From NCBI GenBank assembly GCA_963718295.1, contig CAVQYV010000008.1, positions 79,098-143,097 of the forward strand: 64,000 bases of DNA, given 5' to 3'. The translations under genes were made by a program, and so were the position numbers. The first letter of the stretch is position 1, and the number at the start of each line of letters is the position of its first letter. Below the pieces are notes generated by a model. It did no database searches. It was not told the DNA's origin and saw nothing but the letters and a program-made list of their open reading frames with translations. This DNA is from an uncultured Methylomirabilota bacterium (GTDB lineage Bacteria; Methylomirabilota; Methylomirabilia; CAVQYV01). Of this stretch, positions 22,253 to 33,978 are shown one piece after another.

Positions 22253-24087
22253 ATGCGACGGAATCAGATCCAAATGCTCGTAGTTGCAGCTCTTGTTTTC
22301 TTCTCACTCTTGGGTGAGGTAGCACCTTCTGAGGCCTCCACCAGCGTTTTCCAGGGGTTGGAGCGCTACCCCGTGAATGGAAAGGAATGGATACCATTGG
22401 TGGATGGCAAAGCATATTTTCGGGATGCCTTCGTAGGCGGTTTGACAGCCATTCTCGACGCTGCCGATGGGGAGGAATGGGGAGGTTCGGTGGTCCGGCC
22501 TGATGGTTCCTATCTCTACTGGTATCCCATTAGATTCCATTCGAATTACCAGGGTAAATCGGACTGCTTTGTATGCTCGAATTGGCGAGAGCCCGTCTGT
22601 GGCTCGAACAGCATCATGATGCGTTGGTATACGAATGTACGTCCCGATGCGGATAGCGGATTGCCATGCTATCCCACTGGCCTCTGGAGGTATAGCTTCA
22701 CGAAGAACGGCGTTGCCTTTGCTACTCCGGAATTCACGCTTTTGCCACAGATTCCTGGGGTGCCGTGCTTCAGCCAAGGAGACCAGCAACACACCTTAGC
22801 GATTCCATCTGTAAGGGGCCGAGGAGACAATGGTCGCATTACATCCGTTCGCTGCGGCGGAAAGTACCAGATTCCCTGGACGATTGCTGCCAAAGGGTGT
22901 CTCCTGGTTAACGCTGTTATGATTCTACAATACCACGGGGTGACTACAGGGAGTCGACGGCGGAACCTGTGACGCCGGAGAACCTGAATGCCTGGCTAAT
23001 TGAAACAGGGTACGGCTATGACGCCGATAGGTGAACTGAGACTGCCAAAAGCTGAGAAAGTACTCGGGCGGGCAAGTGACATATCGCCAAATGGTCGAGT
23101 TGGATACTGATGTTCCATAGCGATGCTTTCCTTCGAGAAGAAATGTGCAAGTATGGACCTACCGTGATCCGGGTCCAGTTCGCCCGCCGGGTCATCCGGG
23201 GCCACTTCGTGGTAGGCGACTGGGCGGGACTACCCCGCAGGAAAGCACCTGGCTGATTAACGATCCAGCCGGAGGAGAAGTGACTACGTTGGCCCAAATA
23301 TGGAAATCGATACTATTGTCTCCGGAGGTTTACTGGCCCGGAATTTGGTTGGACGGACCGTTTAGTGGACTCAGTATCAAGCTATACTCCCCTGCGGAGT
23401 TCTTCTCACTGACCCGCAGGGACGGCGGACAGGGCGGGACCCCATCAGCAACATGGGCTTACAGGGAGATTCCGCGCTCTGCTTACGTGGACGTCTGCAT
23501 TGCAGATGCGGAGAATGGCGAACTCGTCCCTCCGGTAATGGAACTTGAGGTATTGCGAGCCTATAGACGGGACTTACACCCTACAGGTGACGGGGATTGA
23601 AGCGGGAGGTTACAGTCTCTATATTCGGCCTGAAGATCGGACAGGGGAATCGGCCTCCCAGACGTTGCTCGGGGAGATCCCTACCTATCCAGGTGCTATC
23701 CACAGCTATACTATCGAATACTCTGCTACTCCCGGTGCCATATTGAAGCTCTTCGGTGGCTTTGACGGACACGGCCAAAGGCCCAGTAACGTAAACATGT
23801 TCCTGTCCTACGGCAACCCTATGAGCTCTCGGGTTCAGCTTGAGGCGGGTGAGAAGACATTTCCTCTTGTGATCTTATACGGAGCCACCATTCAGCCGCA
23901 AACCTTTCGGGCTACGCTAAATGGAACGGATATAACGGCCCAGTTCCGCCCTATCCCCGGAGGAACCGAACTGATCAACCTGTCGCTGGATCCTGGCTCA
24001 AACCCATTAGTTCTGTCCGTAGACGGTGCCACCGCCTCGGGCAGGGTGGCCACGGACACGGACCGCTTGGTCTTCCTAGTGCCATGA
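22253..24087 (+). pseudogene. secreted protein with C39-like (papain-fold) peptidase domain plus C-terminal beta-rich module; several frameshifts
   Basis: Signal peptide MRRNQIQMLVVAALVFFSLLGEVAPSEA; peptidase motifs VPCFSQ, KGCLLVNAVMILQYHG, and in a shifted frame GHFVVGDWAG then LINDPAGG; coding continues across at least three frame changes (track ORFs 22166..22972, 23145..23600, 23545..24087). Confidence 0.5.
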
Positions 24088-24952
24088 GATCGGGATTCCT
24101 TTCCTGCATCTTCTTGTTAATTTTGATTATCGCGCCACCGATCAGGCAGCTCGAAATCGGAGCGACCCCCCCAGATCCCCAGCAAACACTCATGGAGAGA
24201 AAGCCGTCCAAAGAGCCCTTTCACAGTCTCACCCTCAGGCTCTTGGGTCTTAAGATGGACCGGATCAGTCAAAATTTGGTGAGCGAGCTTCTTCTGACCG
24301 ATTCCCAGGGGCGGCGAACGGGAACAGACCCCATGGCAAGAGCCAGATATAAGGAAATCCCTCAATCCGCCTACATAGAGGAATATATGGTTCGTCCAAT
24401 GAAAGAGCTTGAGATCTCCAAGCCGCTCGACGGATCATATATCGTTGCAGGTGATCGGGATAAACCGCGGAAGTTACGATTTGTCGACCTATCCGACCGA
24501 CGAAGCCGGAGACTCCCCCAATCAGCCCCGCTTTGATAACATCCCTATCGCACCCCGAATGGTACACGCCTACAAGCTGGACTACACTCGTACCCCTGGA
24601 ATTCCTCTCAAGGTCACCGGCGGCTTCGACGGGGGAGGAAAGGGGCCAACAGATATGAACAACTTCTTGACCTATGCAAATCCCATTTCCACTGAAACCG
24701 ACAATCCGGGCTGGAAAGACCCCCTTTCCTTTGATCCTATTTTATGCCCCCACCATCGATCCCGCTAGCTTCACGGCTACGCTGGATGGCGTCGATATCT
24801 CACGCCGGTTCAAGCCGATCCCCGGTGGCTACCAGGTCATTCCCCTCAAGTTCAGTGTTGGCTCGCATACCCTGATGCTTTCGGTGCAAGGGAAGACCTC
24901 CGGCGGCGAGGCGGCCACGGACACGGACAAGCTCACTTTCTCGGTTCATTGA
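24084..24952 (+). pseudogene. secreted paralog carrying only the C-terminal module of the upstream gene; two frameshifts
   Basis: ATGA start/stop overlap with upstream gene; signal peptide MRSGFLSCIFLLILIIAPP; homology to gene 1 module (GGFDGGGKGP..., ATLDGVDISRRFKPIPGG..., TDTDKLTFSVH) spread over frames at 24084, 24409 and 24674. Confidence 0.45.
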
Positions 24953-25341: not shown

Positions 25342-25371
25342 CTCTTCGCGCCCCGGTTCAGGGATATGCAG

Positions 25372-25809
25372 GAATCAGGGGACATAATACCGATTCTTCC
25401 CTTGCCTTTGTAAGTAGATCCTCATAGCATACCCGTATGGCCCGTATCTCGCGCATCGTCGTTCCGGGTTACCCCCACCATGTAACCCAGCGGGGCGTCC
25501 GCTCGATGGAGGTGTTTCACAGGGATGAGGAACGCCACGCTTACCTTCGGTTTCTTGCCGAGGAGGCAGGCCGCTTCGATGTGGACATCCTCTGCTGGTG
25601 CCTGATGAGCAACCATGTCCATGTCATAGCCGTCCCCCATCAGGAGACCTCTCTTGCCAGGGCGTTCGGCGAGGCGCACCGGCGCTATACCTGATGGAAG
25701 AACTTCGCGGAAGGCGTACGCGGGTATCTCTTCCAGGGACGGTTCAGCTCGTCCGTCCTCGGCGAAGATCACCTGCTTTCTGAATCGGTGAATCAGGGGA
25801 CATAATACC
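25372..25809 (+). mobile_element. REP/RAYT-like element, copy A (carries the transposase ORF; 3' part missing)
   Basis: Starts with gaatcaggggacataatac shared by all three copies; contains the Y1 HUH transposase ORF. Confidence 0.7.
25437..25808 (+). pseudogene. IS200/IS605-superfamily Y1 (HUH) transposase of the REP-associated (RAYT-like) type, nonsense codon and 3' truncation
   Basis: MARISRIVVPGYPHHVTQRGVRSMEVF...LMSNHVHVIAVP (HUH motif) ...RRYT-TGA-WKNFAEGVRGYLFQGRF; in-frame TGA at 25692-25694; ORF ends where copy B begins. Confidence 0.7.
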
Positions 25810-26100
25810 GATTCTTCCCTTGCCTTTGTCAGTAGATTCTCATAGCATACCAGTAGGGCCCGTATCTCGCGCATCGTTGTTCCGGGTTGAAAGGAGTTTC
25901 TTCGCAGCGGAGACGACCAGGCAACGGTCCGGCTCTGGCTGGCGACGCGGACGGGTCGGCCGGCAGGCGGTGAGGAGCTTATTGCCCTAGTGGAACGGCT
26001 GACGGGTCGTGACCTGCGCAAAGGGCCGCCGGGAAGGCCCAGAAAGGCGCAGGCATAAAACAGTATTATGTCCCCGGATTCCCCTGTCCCCGGATTCCCC
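25810..26100 (+). mobile_element. REP/RAYT-like element, copy B (internally deleted derivative, MITE-like)
   Basis: Same 5' end; retains only first about 8 codons (start ATG changed to AGG) fused to transposase C-terminal coding (TRTGRPAGGEELIALVERLTGRDLRKGPPGRPRKAQA); ends gtattatgtcccc plus ggattcccctgtccccggattcccc, inverted relative to the 5' end. Confidence 0.7.
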
Positions 26101-26196
26101 CGGACAAGGCTGATCACTTCATTTTCAGATGTAATAATCATTCGCTTTAGAAGTCTAAGCTGTTCCGAAACCATTTTACAATTAAAGGAGAGGTGT

Positions 26197-27024
26197 ATGA
26201 AAAAGATTTCAGTATTATTCGTCTTAGCGATTCTCTTTGTTTCTTCGATTTCCCTTGCTCAAGAAAAAGATATGAAAGGTTCGCAAGATCATCCGTTGCT
26301 TTCAAGAATTCCTAACTACTACATAAGCGACCAAGCAAAAAAAGATTTCGATAGTTATACATCCCCATACATTGATAAAGATAATGTTTGGGAAGGAAAG
26401 CTCACTCAAACAAATTATTCCGCTAAAGAAGGAACTAAAGAATTAAGCTTCCTTCAGATAGTAAAAAATTATGAAAATGCCATAAAAAAACTGGGCGGAA
26501 AAATATTGTTATCAGAAACTCGAATATTAAACGCTAAGATCGAAAAAAATAAAGGCGTTACTTATGTAAGCGTTGAGGCATTTAATGACGGAAGAAATTA
26601 CACTTTGATTATCGTCGAAAACAAACCGATGGAAGACGAAGTTACTATTGACGCTGCATCTTTGAGTAAAGGTATTTCTGAAACAGGAAAAATTGCTATT
26701 TACGGAATTTATTTTGACACCGGCAAATCAGATATCAAACCGGAATCTAAGCCAACAATTGTTGAAATTGTAAAAATGCTAAAACAAAACTCAAAGCTAA
26801 AGCTTTTTGTTGTTGGGCATACAGATATTGATGGTTCCTTGGAATCAAATATGAAATTATCATCAGGCCGCGCAGCTTCGGTTGTCAAAGCTTTAATTGA
26901 AAATGGAATTCAGGCTTCAAGATTAAAATCTGGTGGAGTTGGACCTTACTGCCCGGTTGAAAGTAATCATACCGAAGGAGGAAAAGCAAAAAACCGTAGA
27001 GTCGAGTTAGTAGAAATGTTTTAA
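26197..27024 (+). CDS. OmpA family protein (lipoprotein-like signal, C-terminal OmpA peptidoglycan-binding domain)
   Basis: MKKISVLFVLAILFVSSISLA signal; C-terminal IYFDTGKSDIKPES...LFVVGHTDIDGSLESNMKLSSGRAASV...NRRVELVEMF; AT-rich codon usage unlike the rest of the window; RBS aaaggagagg. Confidence 0.85.
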   Translation: MKKISVLFVLAILFVSSISLAQEKDMKGSQDHPLLSRIPNYYISDQAKKDFDSYTSPYIDKDNVWEGKLTQTNYSAKEGTKELSFLQIVKNYENAIKKLGGKILLSETRILNAKIEKNKGVTYVSVEAFNDGRNYTLIIVENKPMEDEVTIDAASLSKGISETGKIAIYGIYFDTGKSDIKPESKPTIVEIVKMLKQNSKLKLFVVGHTDIDGSLESNMKLSSGRAASVVKALIENGIQASRLKSGGVGPYCPVESNHTEGGKAKNRRVELVEMF

Positions 27025-27178
27025 ACTCATTTTCAACAGTCTCCGCGCTTATCCACAGACCTGCTGTCAGTAAAATCCACGACTTAAGATGATCCGCGTC
27101 CTTCTCTCACCCGAAAAGTAGTGCTAACTATGTGTATTTTGCCCTTACAACTGCCCTTCTTTCCGGCATCCTGGGGCC

Positions 27179-28613
27179 ATGTTCGTCAGGCTCAAGAGCT
27201 ATTTATCTAAAGGCAACAGATACGAATATCTCCAGATCGTCGAATCCTATCGGGATCACGGTGCCGTCCGCCAGAGAGTCGTGTCTAATATCGGCCGGCT
27301 CGATCTGCTGGCCGCCTCCGAGCAACTCGATCAGATCGTTTCGGGCCTCTCCCGCTACAGCGAGGCCTACCGTGGATTTCAAGCCTTCCTCCGGGGGAGC
27401 TGGAAGGATGTACCGCCCGCACCTGGGGACCCTGCCGATCTTTGGCCGGCTCTGGGAGGATCAGCGGCTGCCGGAGGTGATCCGGCATCTGGCCCAGGGA
27501 CGAGGGTTCCAGTTCGAAGTGGAACGAGCGGTCTTCGCCCTGGCGCTGCAACGGCTCTGTGCCCCGGGAGCGATCTTTCCGGTCGAGGATGGCTGGAGAC
27601 GGTAGAGGCCCCCGGATTGCAGGCATTGCGCCTGCAGCATCTGTACCGGACCTGCACGTTCCTGGCCGGGATCCGGGAAGAGCTGGAGCGGGAGCTCTTC
27701 TTCCGGGACCGGGATCTCTTCTCCCAGGAGCTGGACCTGGTCTTCCTGGACACCACCTCCACCTATGTGTACCGGGATCAGGAGACGCCCTATCGGCGAC
27801 GGGGGTTCTCCCGGGATCGCCGGGCCGATCTGCCCCAGTTCGTCCTGTGCGTGGCGGTGGATGCCAAGGGGTGGCCCGTAGCCTGGGAGATCTATCCGGG
27901 CAACACGGCGGACGGGGTCGCCCTGGAGCGGATCGTGGGAGCCCTGCGGGAGCGCTTTCGGATTCGGCGGGCCATCGTGGTGGCCGACCGGGGGATGATG
28001 TCCCGGGAGACGATCCGGCTGCTGGAGGCACACCCGGCCCCCTTCGACTACATCCTGGGCTGTCGGATGCGAGAACAAAAGGAGGTACGCGAAGAGGTGC
28101 TGGCCCGGGTGGGCCGCTACCAGGTCGTAGCCGGGAACCTGGAGGTGAAAGAGGTGAGCGTAGGAGGCAAGCGCTACCTCGTCTGCCGCAACCCGGAGGA
28201 GGTCCAGAAGGATCAGGCGGCCCGGGAGGCTATCCTGGCCCAGCTGGAGGAGGTCCTCTCTCAGGGTCCAAGGGACTCATGGCCAACAAGGGGTATAGGC
28301 GTTTCCTGAAGATCGGGAAAGGCTCGGTGCGCATCGATCCTTTGGCCGTCGAGCAGGATGCCCGCCTGGACGGCAAGTTCGTGCTGGCCACCAATACCGA
28401 TTGCCCGCAGCGGAGGTGGCCCGAAGCTACAAGAGCCTCTGGCGGGTGGAGCGTACCTTTCGCGAGGAGAAATCTACCTTGGAGGTGCGGCCATCTATCA
28501 CCATCGGGATGACACCTGCATCGGCACATCGTCGCCTCCTTTTGGCCCTGCGCCTGGAGGTGGACCTGCAACGGAGACTGGAGGAGAAGGAAATCGAGGC
28601 CCGGCCCAGCTGA
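27179..28613 (+). pseudogene. IS4-superfamily (IS1634-family-like) DDE transposase, multiply frameshifted
   Basis: N-terminus MFVRLKSYLSKGNRYEYLQIVESYRDHGAVRQRVVSNIGRLD; DDE region LVFLDTTSTYVY...VVADRGMMS; C-terminal segments DGKFVLATN and YKSLWRVERTFREEKSTLEVRP lie in two further frames. Confidence 0.55.
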
Positions 28614-28881
28614 TGCAACAGCTTTCCAGGTGCAGGCGGTGCACATCGGCCTGGGGGACGACACTTCCTCCACGGACATCTGGGTCCGCTTCTCTCGCCT
28701 TCCAGGCGGTGGGCATGCGTCCCCGCCGGATGGTGGAGATGGAGGGAGGAAGATGTAGTGCCAAGAATTGGAGCTAAGCGAATCTGCTAAATAATAAGTA
28801 CAGAAAGGCAGGAAGAGAAAAGCAATATGTATCAAGGCCTTTGGCCCCCTCCATACTGTTTCAGGAAGGTGTGCCATCCTT

Positions 28882-28964
28882 GGAAGAATCAGGGGACATG
28901 GAAGAATCAGGGAAGAATCAGGGGACATGGAAGAATCAGGGGACATGGAAGAATCAGGGGACAT
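28882..28964 (+). repeat. about 4.6 tandem copies of an 18-bp unit (ggaagaatcaggggacat) at the 5' end of element copy C
   Basis: Directly visible; unit equals the element 5' terminal sequence. Confidence 0.8.
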
Positions 28965-29262
28965 AATACCGATTCTTCCCTTGCCTTTATCAGTAGATTC
29001 TCATCGCATACCAGTATGGCCCGTATCCCGCGCATCGTTGTTCCGGGTTGAAAGGAGTTTCTTCGCAGCGGAGACGACCAGGGGACGGTCCGGCTCTGGC
29101 TGGCGACGCGGACGGGGCGGCCGGCAGGCGGTGAGGAGTTTATTGCCCTAGTGGAACGGCTGACGGGTCGTGACCTGCGCAAAGGGCGGCCGGGAAGGCC
29201 CAGAAAGGCGCAGGCATAAAAACAGTATTATGTCCCCGGATTCCCCTGTCCCCGGATTCCCC
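28882..29262 (+). mobile_element. REP/RAYT-like element, copy C (internally deleted derivative, MITE-like)
   Basis: Near-identical to copy B over about 300 bp, including start ATG, the same internal deletion and the same 3' end (gtattatgtccccggattcccctgtccccggattcccc). Confidence 0.7.
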
Positions 29263-29491
29263 ACAGGGGTTTTTGAACCCGAGCCTCTTGACATTCATGG
29301 GGGCGACCCACTCCCGCACCCTTCTTTCCGCCTCTTCCAGATCCTTCACGATCTTGTTGACCCCGCAGACCAAAATCACCTTCCTGGGTCCGAAGGTCAT
29401 CGCCGCCACTCGATTGCCCGTGCCATCAATGTTGAAGAGCTTGCCGTCTTCCGTTACCGCATTGCTGCTGCCAACAAACACATCGGCCAGA
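29263..29491 (-). pseudogene. internal fragment of an LUD-domain gene (duplicate of part of 34018..34674)
   Basis: About 230 bp roughly 90 percent identical to 34146..34371; encodes ADVFVGSSNAVTEDGKLFNIDGTGNRVAAMTFGPRKVILVCGVNKIVKDLEEAERRVREWVAPMNVKRLGFKNPC; bounded by element copy C and the Kelch gene 1 leader. Confidence 0.55.
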
Positions 29492-29667
29492 TGCATGCGT
29501 GATGATACGAGGTGCAACGGGAACTGCGGAGGTCCAACGGGCCTCTCATCTTGCAGGCATTGAAAGCCAATGGCCTATTTCTTGCTGAGGTCGATTTAAC
29601 AGCCTACTGGAAAGATCGTTCAGGTGGCATCCGAAGACCCGAGCGGAGATCAGAAAGGAGGAGCAAG

Positions 29668-31799
29668 GTGAAACGGAAAAGCTCCACCTCGCTGCAATTC
29701 ATTCTCTTGGTTCCCCTGTCTCTCATCATCCTTTTCGCCGCTTCCAGCCAAGGGGCAGAGCAATGGAAGGACACTTTTGTGGGTGTCCCCCGAGCGAGCG
29801 GTCCCGCCATCTGGACCGGCACGGAGATGATCGTCTGGGGAGGCACCTATTACTATAGAAGCGGAGGACGCTTCAACCCCTCCACGGACGCTTGGACACC
29901 TATTTCCAACGCCAGGGCACCGCTGCCCGGGTATGCCCACACCGCCATCTGGACCGGCACGGAGATGATCATCTGGGGAAGTGGTAGCAACAGCGGCGGA
30001 CGGTACAATCCGACTACCGATACCTGGACTCCCGCTTCGACTGCCGGAGCGCCATCACCAAGATCTGGCCACACCGCCATCTGGACCGGCACGGAGATGA
30101 TCGTCTGGGGAGGGTATGACGGCAGTTCCTATCTCAACACCGGCGCCCGCTACAATCCCACCACCAACACCTGGATTCCTCTCCCCACGGTCGGGGCACC
30201 AAGGATGAGGGAAGACCACACCGCGGTCTGGACCGGCAGCCAGATGGTTGTGTGGGGAGGGAGCAGTGCAGGAGGGCGCAAGAACACGGGCGGACGGTAC
30301 AATCCGACTACCGATACCTGGACTCCCACCTCGACTGCCAGTGCGCCATCACCAAGATCTGGCCACACCGCCATCTGGACCGGCACGGAGATGATCGTCT
30401 GGGGAGGGTATGACGGCAGCTCCTATCTCAATACGGGCGCCCTCTACAATCCGACTACCGATACCTGGACTCCCACCTCGACTGCCAGTGCGCCAGCGCC
30501 AAGATATGCCCACACCGCCATCTGGACCGGCACGGAGATGATCGTCTGGGGAGGTGGCAGCAACACCGGCGCCCTCTACAATCCGACTACCGATACCTGG
30601 ACTCCCACCTCGACTGCCAGTGCGCCAGCGCCAAGATATGCCCACACCGCCATCTGGACCGGCACGGAGATGATCGTCTGGGGAGGACACGGCAGTTTCT
30701 ATCCCGACACGGGGCCCGCTACAATCCCACCACCAACACCTGGAGGGGAATGTCCCTTGAGTACTGTCCCGAGCCCAGAGGGGATCACACCGCCATCTGG
30801 ACCGGCACGGAGATGGTCGTCTGGGGGGGGTATAACGGGTATCTCGCGGGATGGGGAGGCCACTATATCCCCCTCACGGATACGTGGAAATGGGGGGAAC
30901 CCCTAACCACAATGTGGTACCCCCCAGGGCACAGACGAGGTCACACCGCCGTCTGGACCGGCACTTGGATGATCCTCTGGGGAGGGTATGGGTACGATAA
31001 TTTTTGCGGGGGCTTTATTACATACCTCAACGACGGCAGCTTCTACTTGCCTTCTATGTATCCGGTTAATACATGGTATCGGATCTATTCCCTGGGGGCG
31101 CCACAGGCAAGATGTTGGCACACCGCCATCTGGACCGGCAGGAAGATGATCGTCTGGGGAGGATACGACGGCCGAACCTATTTCATCACCGGCGGGCGCT
31201 TCAGCCCGGAGACAAATATTTGGCAAGGCACGTCCACCGAAGGGGCACCGAGAGGAAGGTCCCGGCACACCGCCATCTGGACCGGCAAAGAGATGATCGT
31301 CTGGGGAGGACTTGATCGCACGGCCTCGTTCAACACGGGCGGGCGCTACCGCCCCAGCACCGATACCTGGTCTCCCACCTCGACTGCCAGTGCGCCATCA
31401 CCAAGATCTGGCCACACCGCCATTTGGACCGGGAAGGAAATGATCGTCTGGGGAGGGTATGACGGCAGCTCCTATCTCAACACCGGCGCCCGCTACAATC
31501 CGACTACCGATACCTGGTCTCCCATTTCCACCGCCGGTGCGCCATCACCAAGATCCGGCCATACCGCGGTCTGGACCGGCACCCAAATGATCGTGTGGGG
31601 CGGCAAGAATGCCTCTGGTTGCATGAGAACCGGGGGCCGCTACGACCCCGTCACGGACACCTGGACCCCCACCACCCTGAAGCTGGCACCCGTGGGAAGG
31701 GCCCATCACACCGCCATTTGGACTGGCACGGAGATGGTCGTCTGGGGAGGGATGAATGGTGGCTTCTACCTCAACACGGGTGGCCGCTATACCCCTTGA
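29668..31799 (+). CDS. secreted Kelch-repeat (beta-propeller) protein, paralog 1; one frameshift near 30713
   Basis: GTG start after RBS aaaggagga; signal peptide KRKSSTSLQFILLVPLSLIILFAASSQGA; about 13 repeats of the RYNPTTDTWTP...APSPRSGHTAIWTGTEMIVWGG unit; frame change between track ORFs 29512..30906 and 30750..31799. Confidence 0.6.
30436..30686 (+). repeat. perfect intragenic tandem duplication (119 bp identical, 132-bp period) inside Kelch gene 1
   Basis: ggcgccctctacaatccgactaccgatacctggactccc...gatcgtctggggagg occurs at 30436 and again at 30568. Confidence 0.75.
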
Positions 31800-31848
31800 T
31801 TCCAGCGAAATCGGAAGAATCCAGCGGAGGTCGGAAAGGAGGAACAAG

Positions 31849-33978
31849 GTGAAACGGAGGAGCTTCACCTCTCGGCAATTGGTTTTCTTGGCCTCGTTCT
31901 CTCTCATCGTGCTTTTAGCCGCTTCCGGCCAGGCAACGGAGGAATGGAAGGGCACTCCTGTGGGCGCCCCCTGGGTGGACCGTGGTCAAACCGCCATCTG
32001 GACCGGCACAGAGATGATCGTCTGGGGAGGAACCTATCACTATAGAGGGGGAGGGTGCTACAACCTTGCCACCGACACCTGGAGACCCATTTCCAACACC
32101 AAGGCGCCGAGGGCTGAATACGACCACATAGCGGTTTGGACGGGCACGGAGATGATCATCTGGGTGGGAGCCAACAACACCGGCGGCCGTTATGACCCCG
32201 CCATGGACAGGTGGTCTCCCATTTCCACCGCCGGTGCGCCATCACCAAGATCATGGCCATACCGCCGTCTGGACCGGCACGGAGATGATCATCTGGGGAG
32301 GGTATGACGGCAGCTCCTATCTCAACACGGGCGCCCGCTACAATCCGACTACCGATACCTGGTCTTCCATTTCGACCGCGGTGCGCCAACCGCGGGCCAC
32401 ACCGCCATCTGGACCGGCACGGAGATGATCATCTGGGGAGGTGGCAGCAACACCGGCGGCCGCTATGACCCCGCTACCGATACCTGGTCTCCCATTTCCA
32501 CCGCCGGTGCGCCATCACCAAGATCTAGCCATACCGTGGTCTGGACCGGCACGGAGATGATCATCTGGGGAGGGTATGACGGCACTTGGCTCAACTCGGG
32601 AGGCCGCTACGATCCTACCGGCGATACCTGGATCTCCACTTCGGTAACAGGCGCGCCCAAGGCGAGAATTGCCCACACCGCCATCTGGACCGGCAGTCAG
32701 ATGGTTGTGTGGGGAGGGAACGGTGCAAGAGGGCACAAGAAGACCGGTGGACGCTACGATCCGACGAGCGACGCCTGGACAGCTACCTCCACCCTTGGGG
32801 CGCCTGAAGGGAGGGTTTATCATACGGCGCTCTGGACGGGAAGGAGATGATCGTGTGGGGCGGGAGACGGCAGCTCGTATCCGAACGACAGCGGCGGACG
32901 CTACGATCCCGCTGCCAACGCTTGGAGCAAGATCTCCCATGATAGGAGTCCTGAGGAGAGACGCGATCACACCGCCGTCTGGACCGGCACGGAGATGATC
33001 GTGTGGGGTGGGTATAACGGGGATCATCTGGGATGGGGCGGCCACTATATCCCCCTGACGGATACCTGGACCCGGACGGAACCCCCCTCTGGTTTTCTCC
33101 GAGGTGGGGGGAGGAAGGACCACACCGCCGTCTGGACCGGCACGGAGATGATCGTCTGGGGAGGCTATGGGGACGGCAGTTGCGGATGCACTCCATACCT
33201 CAACAGCGGCGCGCGCTACCGGCCCGCGTTTTATCCCGATGATACCCGTGCCTGGCTTGGGATGTCTTACCTGGGGGCACCACAGGCAAGGCGTTGGCAC
33301 ACCGCCGTCTGGACCGGCGGGAAGATGATCGTCTGGGGAGGGTATGACGGCCGAACCCACCTTACCACCGGCGGGCGCTACAACCCGGAGACGGATATCT
33401 GGCAGGGCACCTCCACCGAAGGGGCCCCCAAAGGCAGGTCCCGGCATACTGCAATCTGGACCGGGAAGGAAATGATCGTCTGGGGAGGGCTTGGTCGCAG
33501 CGCCTCGTTCAACACGGGCGGGCGCTACCGCTTCAATACCAATACCTGGACTCCCACCTCGACCGATGGAGCGCCATCTCCAAGATATAGCCATACCGCC
33601 ATCTGGACCGGCAAAGAGATGATCGTCTGGGGAGGGTATGACGGCAGCTCCTATCTCAACACGGGCGGCCGCTACAATCCGACTACCGATACCTGGACTC
33701 CCCTCTCCACGATCGGGGCACCCACGATGAGGAAGGACCACACCGCGGTCTGGACCGGAAGCCAGATGATCGTGTGGGGCGGCAAGAATGCCTCTGGTTA
33801 CATGAGAAGCGGAGGCCGCTACGACCCCGTCACGGACACCTGGACCCCAACCACCGTGAAGCTGGCACCCGTGGGAAGGGTCCATCACACTGCCATTTGG
33901 ACTGGCACGGAGATGATCATTTGGGGAGGAATTAGCGGTGGCTTCTACCTCGAAACAGGTGGCCGCTATACCCCTTGA
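31849..33978 (+). pseudogene. secreted Kelch-repeat protein, paralog 2; at least four frameshifts
   Basis: Same leader and GTG start (ggaaaggaggaacaaggtg), same signal peptide type and repeat unit; coding alternates among track ORFs 31756..32307, 32192..32428, 32425..32850, 32995..33978; one break is a G-run length change (acgggaaggag versus expected acggggaaggag). Confidence 0.5.

What the first reader, a model, noticed from the sequence alone, without database searches (positions are those of the whole stretch)
25372..29262. Three defective copies of a REP/RAYT-like element bracket a foreign-looking segment
The motif gaatcaggggacataatac begins elements at 25372, 25810 and about 28950, and two end with its inverse (gtattatgtcccc plus ggattcccctgtccccggattcccc). 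Copy A carries an IS200/IS605-superfamily Y1 transposase of the REP-associated type (HUH motif HVHVI) that is stopped by an in-frame TGA and cut off at its 3' end by copy B. Copies B and C are about 300-bp deletion derivatives that keep only the first codons and the C-terminal coding end. Copies B and C are direct repeats flanking about 2.8 kb containing the low-GC OmpA gene and a decayed IS1634-like transposase.
Basis: partly seen in the sequence, partly recalled or inferred. Interest (0 to 1): 0.6.

Follow-up and report, generated by a model that had tools for sequence, protein, structure and literature searches.

The report
Decayed TIR-flanked tyrosine-transposase elements (TIRtrons)
Three dead copies of a little-studied selfish DNA element (a tyrosine "Y1" transposase gene framed by inverted repeats, known as a TIRtron) sit in a decaying stretch of an NC10-like bacterial chromosome, next to a single outer-membrane gene imported from an unrelated phylum; the element class is already described, so this is a tidy but ordinary example.

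Summary
The 19-mer GAATCAGGGGACATAATAC starts three same-strand elements at 25372, 25790 (not 25810) and 28951. Its inverse closes two of them, at 26063-26081 and 29225-29243.

Copy A is a Y1/HUH transposase pseudogene. It has an in-frame TGA and is truncated at 25782, before the catalytic-Tyr motif. Copies B and C are 311-312 bp, 97% identical, and share one 460-bp internal deletion.

Between B and C lie two unrelated pieces:
- a 920-bp Ignavibacteriales-type OmpA fragment (GC 35%) that begins 2-3 nt after B's right end;
- a frameshifted IS1634 remnant (GC about 65%).

The label "REP/RAYT-like" is imprecise. The protein carries the signatures of TnpA-Y1 subclass 2.1 (NHVH, FQ, YVELNP in relatives). 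It scores below NCBI's REP-transposase cutoff. It is flanked by terminal inverted repeats with a GGGGWSAS-type core, not by GTAG REP hairpins. That defines the published TIRYT/TIRtron class (Di Nocera 2013; Quentin 2018).

The GGGGACATAATAC core recurs across many phyla as full elements, internally deleted copies, 25-62-bp palindromes and solo ends.

Verdict: a new member of a known kind, moderately interesting. How the foreign DNA came to lie exactly between B and C is unresolved.

The parts
25372..25390 (+). Left terminal inverted repeat of copy A (conserved core GGGGACATAATAC at 25378-25390)
   Evidence: Exact 19-mer. The same core flanks full-length relatives L003, L006 and L043.
25437..25782 (+). 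Copy A: 5' 115 codons of a TIRYT-type Y1 transposase pseudogene. HUH at 25614-25622, in-frame TGA at 25692-25694, truncated before the catalytic-Tyr motif.
   Evidence: Translation. Pfam Y1_Tnp 25.2 bits against a cutoff of 23. 93.2% nt identity to L079/L082 over 25370-25782, then homology ends.
25782..25789 (+). Junction octamer GAATCGGT between A and B. It is either a partial outer repeat of the TIR or the complement of the inner ACCGATTC (25807-25814).
   Evidence: Alignment A1. An 8-bp stem appears in the DNA fold. Its origin is unexplained.
25790..26100 (+). Copy B: 311-bp internally deleted, non-autonomous element. Left end 25790-25808, start codon mutated to AGG, deletion junction 25888/25889, C-terminal coding remnant 25891-26058, right end 26063-26081, 16-bp x2 repeat 26069-26100.
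26103..27024 (+). Foreign single-gene fragment: Ignavibacteriales-type OmpA-family gene (26197-27024) plus 94 nt upstream. GC is 0.35.
   Evidence: Pfam OmpA 66 bits. 92.4% nt identity to low-GC contigs L087-L089 over exactly 26103-27022, and 82.7% to an Ignavibacteriales MAG, L084. Protein relatives are named Ignavibacteriales.
27179..28613 (+). Decayed IS1634-family DDE transposase gene, split over at least two frames. GC is about 0.65.
   Evidence: NCBIfam transpos_IS1634 186.6 bits for profile positions 2-309 in 27179-28309. Positions 370-434 lie in a different frame at 28401-28610. Composition.
28881..28964 (+). Tandem array (18 bp x ~5, TGGAAGAATCAGGGGACA) of partial left-end units immediately outside copy C.
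   Evidence: TRF score 119. Analogous nested partial end-repeats occur in more than 15 unrelated loci.
28951..29262 (+). Copy C: 312-bp deletion derivative, 97% identical to B, with the same junction (29049/29050). Right end 29225-29243, 16-bp x2 repeat 29231-29262.
29263..29517 (-). LUD-domain gene fragment, truncated at both ends, that abuts C's right end.
   Evidence: Pfam LUD_dom 91 bits, profile positions 83-158 of 189 only. No continuation was found left of A or C.

Best explanation
The region is a small graveyard of one family of TIRtrons. A TIRtron is a compact element, about 745 bp between the two repeat cores. It consists of a gene for a ~220-aa Y1 (HUH) tyrosine transposase of TnpA-Y1 subclass 2.1 (TIRYT; Bertels group 1), tightly framed by terminal inverted repeats whose invariant core is GGGGACATAATAC.

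Copy A is a dead transposase gene. It has a stop codon and has lost its 3' half, including the catalytic tyrosine. Copies B and C are non-autonomous miniatures. They descend from a single 460-bp internal deletion and now sit at two different sites, so the miniature was copied after it arose. The most likely route is mobilisation in trans by an intact TIRYT.

Inferred mechanism, by homology to E. coli TnpA-REP and IS608 TnpA: the enzyme recognises the repeat ends on single-stranded DNA, cleaves through a 5'-phosphotyrosine intermediate and rejoins strands. This excises and re-inserts anything bounded by a left and a right end. Repeated action at the ends, or slippage there, would leave the nested partial end-repeats.

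Nothing in this window is active now. The OmpA fragment and the IS1634 remnant between B and C are separate acquisitions, trimmed or joined at the element ends.

Shown here: the anatomy, family membership, shared deletion, foreign origin of OmpA, and cross-phylum recurrence of the ends. Inferred: the catalytic mechanism, mobilisation in trans, and how the foreign DNA arrived.
For: Fold and family.
- Pfam Y1_Tnp is above cutoff for copy A and for full-length relatives.
- A profile search of solved structures gives E. coli TnpA-REP 4ER8 as the only hit, aligning the HUH, FQ/WQ and Y---NP motifs.
- An AF2 model of a relative (pLDDT 82.6) best matches 4ER8 (probability 1.00, TM 0.59), followed by IS608, ISDra2 and IS200 transposases.

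Subclass 2.1 signatures.
- NHVH and LFQGRF are present in copy A.
- RYVELNP and PWSS are present in 89-93%-identical relatives and in the family alignment.
- These match Table 1 of PMC6006769.

Terminal repeats.
- The core GGGGACAT fits GGGGWSAS at 7 of 8 positions (PMC3733652).
- The left core lies 58-59 nt upstream of the ATG (98 nt in L043). The right core lies 2-5 nt after the stop, both in the window and in the distant relative L003.

B and C as copies of one derivative.
- Same junction, same G>A change that creates a TGA, and the same 16-bp x2 right-end repeat.
- The flanks are unrelated.

Independent internal-deletion derivatives that keep both ends occur elsewhere: L025, L040 and L054, which retain tnp remnants, and L013, L016, L017, L058 and L067, inferred from the 89-506 bp spacing between inverted cores.

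Spread of the 19-mer in representative genomes: 71 stretches across Desulfuromonadales, Elusimicrobia, Planctomycetes, Armatimonadota, Acidobacteriota, Anaerolineales and others. About 17 are expected by chance (my arithmetic). Counting places where the 13-bp core matches with at most one mismatch, they comprise 4 full elements, 7 deleted copies, 16 mini-palindromes, 7 same-strand tandems and 53 solo ends.

Clustering of several same-orientation ends within 1-3 kb recurs in L024, L025, L040, L073 and L080.
Against: - No intact transposase lies in the window, and every close relative found (89-93% nt) is also a pseudogene. Activity of this sub-lineage is therefore historical at best.
- The 22-nt deletion-junction sequence has no exact match in the metagenome contig collection. 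Only two copies of the miniature are known, so a local duplication cannot be excluded.
- No TIRYT has been characterised biochemically. Only two works in the searchable library mention the term (a third copy is the preprint of one of them), and both are computational.
- The cleavage sites, the strand used and the target are unknown. No empty site was recovered.
- Outside the 13-nt core the two ends are not complementary, so a base-paired 'panhandle' substrate has no covariation support.
- The DnaA-like/HTH tail reported for part of subclass 2.1 was not detected by Pfam at E<=1.
Confidence: 0.8

Rival explanations
1. A canonical REPtron. On this reading the gene is a domesticated REP-associated tyrosine transposase (RAYT/TnpA-REP), and the repeats are REP/REPIN sequences that it maintains genome-wide.
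For: - The best structural and sequence relative in the PDB is TnpA-REP 4ER8.
- The only NCBIfam hit is REP_Tyr_transpos.
- Doublets of inverted ends 25-62 bp apart in other genomes look like REPINs (the L034 hairpin folds at -25.9 kcal/mol, z = -9.4).
Against: - Scores are well below the curated cutoff: 29.8 bits for copy A and about 54 for full-length relatives, against 80.
- There is no GT[AG]G-tagged hairpin next to the gene.
- The motifs are those of subclass 2.1, for which no REPs were found by Quentin et al..
- Three copies lie within 4 kb and none elsewhere in 64 kb. That is not a single-copy gene with dispersed REPs.
Confidence: 0.07
2. An ordinary IS200/IS605-family insertion sequence (TnpA-IS200 type) with its usual miniature derivatives.
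For: - Pfam Y1_Tnp 'Transposase IS200 like' matches.
- The element is compact, multi-copy and decays like an IS.
- Bertels et al. rank group 1, with group 6, among the most IS-like RAYT groups.
Against: - The Tyr motif in relatives is Y---NP, not Y---Q.
- The protein is about 220 aa with a C-terminal tail, not about 150 aa.
- The ends are inverted repeats rather than asymmetric subterminal hairpins.
- There is no tnpB.
- IS608, IS200 and ISDra2 structures match worse than TnpA-REP.
Confidence: 0.05
3. B and C are causally linked to the foreign DNA. One version is that a circular molecule carrying one miniature plus OmpA and IS1634 recombined with a chromosomal miniature (Campbell-type). The other is that LE(B)...RE(C) moved as one composite unit. 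This concerns the 'bracket' only and is compatible with the best explanation for what the elements are.
For: - B and C are direct repeats with one ancestry.
- Ignavibacteriales-type DNA begins 2-3 nt after B's right end (26103 against 26100).
- The other edge of the mosaic abuts C's left-end array.
- Both edges coinciding with element ends is unlikely to be accidental.
Against: - B and C differ at about 10 positions (3%), so they are not fresh products of one event.
- The outer flanks (A's tnp and the LUD fragment) do not reconstruct a single target.
- DNA left of C does not continue the donor sequence upstream of 26103.
- No second instance of the unit was found.
Confidence: 0.3
4. The low-GC OmpA insert is an assembly chimera created at repeated sequences, not a real part of this chromosome.
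For: - The GC jump is abrupt, 0.35 against 0.57.
- The fragment is flanked by repeats (miniature B and an IS remnant), which are classic places for mis-joins.
- The exact-sequence look-up of the window's OmpA product found no encoding contig on record.
Against: - A 100%-identical OmpA (P0121) and the window's GlnD (P0241) are both recorded on a contig of the same length, 696,518 bp.
- The donor-like contigs L087-L089 carry no TIR next to OmpA, so there is no shared repeat to mis-join on.
- The right junction with the IS remnant involves no repeat shared with a low-GC genome.
- The rest of the window is densely intact coding sequence.
Confidence: 0.07

Closest known systems
TIRtrons / TIRYT (TIR-associated tyrosine transposases; Di Nocera et al. 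2013, PMC3733652), equal to TnpA-Y1 subclass 2.1 (Quentin et al. 2018, PMC6006769) and RAYT group 1 (Bertels et al. 2017, PMC5581495)
   Same: - A Y1/HUH protein of about 220 aa with the NHVH, FQ, Y[IV]ELNP and PWSS motifs.
- The gene is framed at fixed short distances by terminal inverted repeats that carry a GGGGWSAS-type motif.
- No GTAG REPs.
- The repeats also occur as singles, dimers and clusters.
- The behaviour is somewhat IS-like.
   Different: - The last position of the motif is T (GGGGACAT) rather than S.
- No DnaA-like/HTH Pfam signal was found in the tail.
- The exact 13-nt core GGGGACATAATAC was not found in the searchable literature.
- I did not find internally deleted copies that share a junction, or nested partial end-repeats, described in the passages read.
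E. coli REPtron: TnpA-REP (RAYT, PDB 4ER8) with REP/BIME/REPIN sequences
   Same: - The closest solved structure and the only PDB sequence hit.
- The Y---NP tyrosine motif.
- The gene is flanked by inverted copies of its cognate repeat.
- Doublets of inverted repeats resemble REPINs.
- Repeats form clusters.
   Different: - The score is below the NCBIfam equivalog cutoff.
- The repeats are not GTAG-tagged hairpins.
- The protein is longer and has a C-terminal tail.
- There are several decayed gene copies rather than one conserved copy.
IS200/IS605 family (IS608, ISDra2) and their miniature derivatives
   Same: - The HUH/Y1 catalytic core.
- A compact single-gene element.
- Non-autonomous deletion derivatives that keep only the ends.
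- All three copies lie on one strand, as expected for strand-specific single-strand transposition (inference).
   Different: - Y---NP rather than Y---Q.
- Inverted-repeat ends rather than distinct left and right subterminal hairpins.
- No tnpB.
- No defined tetranucleotide target was seen.

Membership tests
TIRtron / TIRYT (TnpA-Y1 subclass 2.1) | Y1 HUH core domain | tested here: met
   - Pfam Y1_Tnp: 25.2 bits for copy A and 26-32 bits for full-length relatives, cutoff 23.
- The AF2 model matches 4ER8 and the IS608 transposases.
TIRtron / TIRYT (TnpA-Y1 subclass 2.1) | HuH motif NHVH and 'FQ' in place of the W motif | tested here: met
   Copy A reads ...LMSNHVHVIAVP... and ...GYLFQGRF.... 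Both are nearly invariant in alignments A2 and A3. Compared against Table 1 of PMC6006769.
TIRtron / TIRYT (TnpA-Y1 subclass 2.1) | Tyrosine motif Y[IV]ELNP followed by the serine ('SS') motif | tested here: met
   The motif is absent from copy A only because the gene is truncated at 25782. The 93%-identical L079/L082 and L001 encode RYVELNP...YPWSS at the corresponding place. It is conserved in A2.
TIRtron / TIRYT (TnpA-Y1 subclass 2.1) | Gene framed by terminal inverted repeats carrying GGGGWSAS at a fixed short distance | tested here: met
   - GGGGACAT matches at 7 of 8 positions.
- The left core is 58-59 nt before the ATG (98 nt in L043).
- The right core is 2-5 nt after the stop, in the window and in L003.
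TIRtron / TIRYT (TnpA-Y1 subclass 2.1) | C-terminal extension similar to Bac_DnaA_C, HTH_23 or HTH_28 | tested here: not met
   No such Pfam hit at E<=1 for four full-length relatives. The tail is short (TRTGRPAG...GRPRK) and its last residues are low-confidence in the model. The literature calls this domain heterogeneous in sub-group 2.1.2, so it is not strictly defining.
Canonical REPtron / RAYT (TnpA-REP) | Protein reaches the NCBIfam REP_Tyr_transpos equivalog cutoff | tested here: not met
   29.8 bits for copy A and 53.5-54.7 bits for full-length relatives, against a cutoff of 80.
Canonical REPtron / RAYT (TnpA-REP) | Gene flanked by REP hairpins with a 5' GT[AG]G tag | tested here: not met
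   - The only inverted repeats around the copies are the long-range terminal repeats.
- Local folds of A's and B's left ends are not better than shuffles (z = -0.06 and -1.5).
Canonical REPtron / RAYT (TnpA-REP) | Single conserved gene copy with a high-copy dispersed repeat family in the same genome | not testable with these tools
   Only 64 kb of the source genome is available. Within it there are three clustered dead copies and no dispersed repeats. The source genome is not among the scanned representatives.
IS200/IS605 (TnpA-IS200, subclass 1.1) | Y---Q tyrosine motif, ~150-aa protein, asymmetric subterminal hairpins without inverted repeats | tested here: not met
   Y---NP in relatives, about 220 aa, and 13-19-bp terminal inverted repeats.
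Non-autonomous miniature derivative (MITE-like) of the element | Both ends kept, internal deletion, no functional transposase, and the same derivative present at more than one site | tested here: met
   B and C share one 460-bp deletion junction and are 97% identical, with unrelated flanks. Only two copies are known, and there is no further exact junction match in metagenome contigs.

The most novel reading that the evidence does not exclude
The GGGGACATAATAC-ended TIRtrons are one mobile family, active or recently active, that spans many bacterial phyla. On this reading their inverted end-doublets (25-62 bp palindromes) and internally deleted copies are the cognate 'REPIN-equivalents' of subclass 2.1 enzymes, a subclass so far reported to lack REP-like partners. 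The nested partial end-repeats, which always restart at GAATC, and the joining of foreign DNA within 2-3 nt of an element end would then record the enzyme's cleavage and strand-transfer register. That would include an ability to join its ends to unrelated DNA.
Probability: 0.3. Interest if true: 0.55.

Novelty: new member of a known kind. Interest (0 to 1): 0.38.

Why it matters
TIRYT/subclass 2.1 is the second-largest branch of the Y1 transposase superfamily (about 15% of strains in Quentin et al.), yet it has no biochemistry and no agreed DNA partner.

This locus and its relatives give a concrete, testable substrate set:
- an invariant 13-nt core;
- a natural 311-bp mini-element;
- 25-62-bp end-doublets;
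- intact proteins to express (L003, L006, L043).

For the genome in hand, the practical message is narrower. Positions 25.3-29.5 kb are dead mobile DNA plus one gene imported from another phylum, inside a decaying 23-32 kb zone. This is not a functional system.

Tried and rejected
1. Exact-junction search. The 22-mer across the B/C deletion junction gave 0 hits in metagenome contigs. This gave no independent proof that the miniature spread further.
2. Empty site or continuation of the LUD gene. Minus-strand translations left of A and left of C show no LUD C-terminus. No fetched locus shares DNA with the window outside the elements.
3. Retrieving the source or sibling assemblies by exact protein. 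OmpA, P0121 and the 118-aa upstream ORF are not on record. P0122 and P0123 are on ~1-kb JGI contigs without DNA. The upstream ORF coordinates recorded for those contigs do not fit the window sequence exactly, so no inference was drawn.
4. Hairpin model for a single end. C's left end folds well (9-bp stem, z = -4), but A's and B's do not beyond shuffles. The stem partly derives from the outer repeat array. It was not adopted.
5. Promoter and terminator scan. Nothing was convincing in the elements.
6. IS1634 boundaries. No terminal inverted repeats were found and there was no plasmid relative.
7. tRNA-linked island. There is no tRNA in the window.
8. Plasmid carriage. Only relatives below 45% identity occur on plasmids.
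9. A single-sequence PDB search found nothing. The profile search was needed.

Full report

Yes. GAATCAGGGGACATAATAC occurs exactly at 25372, 25790 and 28951 on the + strand. Its reverse complement, with one mismatch, occurs at 26063-26081 and 29225-29243. That is five matches where dinucleotide shuffles give 0.03. The 13-nt core GGGGACATAATAC gives the same five sites and no others in the 64-kb window.

Both right ends are followed by two 16-bp units, TGTCCCCGGATTCCCC. An 18-bp unit (TGGAAGAATCAGGGGACA) is repeated about five times just outside the left end of the third copy. All three copies lie on the same strand.

**2. Anatomy of the three copies**

Copy A runs from its left end (25372) through an ORF that starts at 25437. 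The ORF carries HUH (N59-H60-V61-H62) and LFQGRF. It is stopped by an in-frame TGA at 25692-25694.

An exact-pattern scan of metagenome contigs recovered full-length relatives 89-93% identical at the DNA level (L077, L079, L082, L076, L083). Against these:
- A's homology ends at 25782. That is 115 codons in, just before the RYVELNP tyrosine motif the relatives encode.
- The full element measures about 745 bp between the two repeat cores.

Copies B (25790-26100) and C (28951-29262) are 97% identical. Each lacks the same 460 bp (L079 1506-1965) and has an identical junction...GTTCCGGGTT|GAAAGGAG.... Each retains 11 N-terminal codons and the last ~55 codons, KEFL...TRTGRPAG...GRPRKAQA. Their flanks are unrelated, so one deletion derivative was copied to a second site.

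**3. What family is it?**

Sequence and structure searches:
- Copy A passes Pfam Y1_Tnp (25.2 bits against 23), as do full-length relatives.
- Against NCBIfam the only hit is REP_Tyr_transpos, but far below its cutoff of 80: 29.8 bits for A and 53.5-54.7 bits for intact relatives.
- A profile of the family finds E. coli TnpA-REP (4ER8) as the only solved relative, at E = 0.011. The alignment matches HUH, FQ/WQ and Y---NP.
- An AlphaFold model of a relative (pLDDT 82.6) matches 4ER8 best (TM 0.59), and then the IS608, ISDra2 and IS200 transposases.

The literature settles the name. Quentin et al. 2018 (PMC6006769) define TnpA-Y1 subclass 2.1 by NHVH, FQ, Y[IV]ELNP, an 'SS' motif, a median length of 238 aa and no REPs. 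They equate it with the TIRYTs of Di Nocera et al. 2013 (PMC3733652). In that class the genes are framed by terminal inverted repeats sharing GGGGWSAS, forming 'TIRtrons'. Bertels et al. 2017 call it RAYT group 1 and rank it, with group 6, among the most IS-like RAYT groups.

The window element has every sequence signature and a GGGGACAT repeat core, which fits at 7 of 8 positions. The one reported feature I could not find is a DnaA-like/HTH Pfam signal in the tail. No GTAG-tagged hairpins flank the copies.

So 'REP/RAYT-like' is the right superfamily but the wrong branch.

**4. Relatives elsewhere**

The 19-mer (with N at position 6) has 71 matching stretches among representative genomes. About 17 would be expected by chance on uniform composition (my arithmetic). 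A few solo hits are clearly coding-sequence coincidences, for example L007 and L071.

The hosts span Desulfuromonadales, Syntrophales, Elusimicrobia, Planctomycetes, Armatimonadota, Acidobacteriota, Anaerolineales and others. They include cultured strains: Desulfobulbus rhabdoformis, and IMCC39146 with four dispersed copies on one 217-kb contig.

Counting places where the 13-bp core matches with at most one mismatch, the hits sort as follows:

| Form | Count | Distance between cores |
|---|---|---|
| Full elements with a transposase gene | 4 | 716-764 bp |
| Internally deleted copies | 7 | 89-506 bp |
| End-doublets that fold as long hairpins | 16 | 25-62 bp |
| Same-strand tandems | 7 | n/a |
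| Solo ends | 53 | n/a |

For the end-doublets, L034 folds at -25.9 kcal/mol (z = -9.4).

Three of the deleted copies (L025, L040, L054) keep the first and last codons of the gene just as B and C do. They are independent examples of the same kind of decay.

Two traits of the window recur widely:
- Nested partial repeats lie outside the ends. They always restart at (G)GAATC and stop at variable points.
- Several same-orientation ends cluster within 1-3 kb (L024, L025, L040, L073). In L080 a solo end of another subfamily truncates a transposase gene, exactly as B truncates A.

Beyond the 13-nt core, the left and right ends are not complementary. The core looks like a conserved protein-recognition site rather than a structure maintained by covariation.

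**5. The segment between B and C**

Host. The window's GlnD is 100% identical to a protein on a 696,518-bp contig. Its nearest named relatives are candidate division NC10, at 74%. A 100%-identical OmpA is recorded on a contig of the same length.

OmpA fragment. The OmpA gene is of Ignavibacteriales type: 89% protein identity to a named MAG, and 92.4% DNA identity to low-GC contigs L087-L089. The DNA homology covers exactly 26103-27022. It therefore starts 2-3 nt after B's right end and stops at the OmpA stop codon. The result is a 920-bp single-gene fragment of GC 0.35 in a window of GC 0.574.

IS1634 remnant. Next to the OmpA fragment is an IS1634-family transposase remnant of GC about 0.65, split across frames. 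The 2.8 kb is therefore a mosaic of two different origins.

Surroundings. To the right of C is a LUD-domain gene fragment truncated at both ends. The wider 23-32 kb zone contains several frameshifted paralogues, while the rest of the window is densely intact. This is a plastic, decaying zone of a chromosome that otherwise carries housekeeping genes.

**6. How it most likely works**

The following is inferred, not shown here. It rests on homology to TnpA-REP and IS608 TnpA, whose chemistry is established (reviewed in PMC6006769).

An intact TIRYT would recognise the conserved core at each end on single-stranded DNA. It would cut through a 5'-phosphotyrosine link and rejoin strands. Any segment bounded by a left and a right end could then be excised and re-inserted, including miniatures such as B and C supplied with the enzyme in trans.

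All three copies being on one strand fits a strand-specific process. The C-terminal tail carries two GRP motifs, TRTGRPAG and GRPRK, that resemble AT-hooks by eye. It might contact the A/T-rich half of the core. This is speculation.

Nothing in the window can act now:
- A lacks its catalytic tyrosine.
- B has lost its start codon.
- Both miniatures have a stop at codon 12.
- Every close relative found is also a pseudogene, including a recurrent CGA>TGA change at codon 86.

**7. The 'bracket'**

Both edges of the foreign mosaic coincide with element ends. I doubt this is accidental, but I cannot say which process produced it. Each option has a problem:
- A Campbell-type recombination of a miniature-bearing circle predicts donor DNA left of C, which is not there.
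- Composite mobilisation from LE(B) to RE(C) predicts outer flanks that were once contiguous, and they were not.
- Independent insertions followed by end-adjacent deletions need several events.
- The 3% divergence between B and C argues against a single recent event.

An assembly chimera is unlikely. OmpA and GlnD are recorded on contigs of the same length, and the donor-like contigs have no shared repeat to mis-join on.

**8. Verdict**

The object is a decayed cluster of TIRtrons: one truncated TIRYT pseudogene and two copies of a 311-bp non-autonomous derivative. It lies beside an Ignavibacteriales-derived OmpA gene and a dead IS1634, in an NC10-like chromosome.

It is a new member of a known but experimentally untouched class. 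Three things make it more than routine:
- the clean mini-element;
- the cross-phylum invariance of the 13-nt core, with REPIN-like end-doublets;
- the nested end-repeats and the foreign DNA joined at an element end.

All three are leads for defining what subclass 2.1 enzymes actually do.

Noticed in passing
window 26103-27024: A single OmpA-family gene with 94 nt of upstream DNA is 92% identical in DNA to low-GC (Ignavibacteriales-type) contigs. The homology stops exactly at its stop codon. This is a gene-sized cross-phylum import into an NC10-like chromosome.
   Followed up: yes
window 23145-24952: Two tandem paralogous genes share the motif ...GGFDG.G..P...N.FL.Y.NP... . They are split over overlapping ORFs: 23145-23600 with 23545-24087, and 24084-24536, 24409-24768 and 24674-24952. 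This suggests frameshifted pseudogenes upstream of copy A.
   Followed up: no
window 29512-32307: Tandem genes for repeat proteins (recurrent TAIWTGTEMIVWGG units, Kelch-like by eye, not tested) have near-identical signal-peptide modules. Their ORFs overlap and are out of frame (29512-30906, 30750-31799, 31756-32307).
   Followed up: no
window 29263-29517 (-): An LUD-domain gene fragment covers only profile positions 83-158 of 189. Its 3' side is cut by copy C, and its 5' side lies next to the repeat-protein gene.
   Followed up: partly
L001, L077, L079, L082 (same locus); L076/L081/L083; L080; L002: Every close relative of copy A (89-93% nt) carries stops or frameshifts. Four metagenome contigs share one orthologous insertion downstream of a TM1586-type nitroreductase gene. 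CGA>TGA at codon 86 occurs in both the window and L077.
   Followed up: partly
L080 7900-8140 (- strand): A transposase gene of this family is truncated after about 35 codons by a solo end of a different subfamily (GGGGACACCATAC) in the same orientation. This mirrors B truncating A.
   Followed up: partly
window 28881-28964; 26069-26100; 29231-29262; L012, L014, L016, L019, L020, L024, L028, L036, L037, L042, L045, L052, L057, L068, L075: Nested partial repeats lie outside the element ends. They always restart at (G)GAATC and end at variable points (GGG, GGGGACA(T), or the full core). The mechanism is unknown.
   Followed up: partly
window 25782-25814 and 28947-28979: In B the flank GAATCGGT is the exact complement of the inner ACCGATTC. 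In C, GGAAGAATC pairs with GATTCTTCC (z = -4). Both would place the conserved core in a hairpin loop.
   Followed up: partly
window 27685-27751: A 21-bp x 3.2 imperfect tandem repeat lies inside the IS1634 remnant coding region.
   Followed up: no
family alignment A2/A3, C-terminus (window 25990-26055 in B): The transposase tail has two GRP motifs (TRTGRPAG and GRPRK) that resemble AT-hooks. The last residues are low-confidence in the AF2 model.
   Followed up: no
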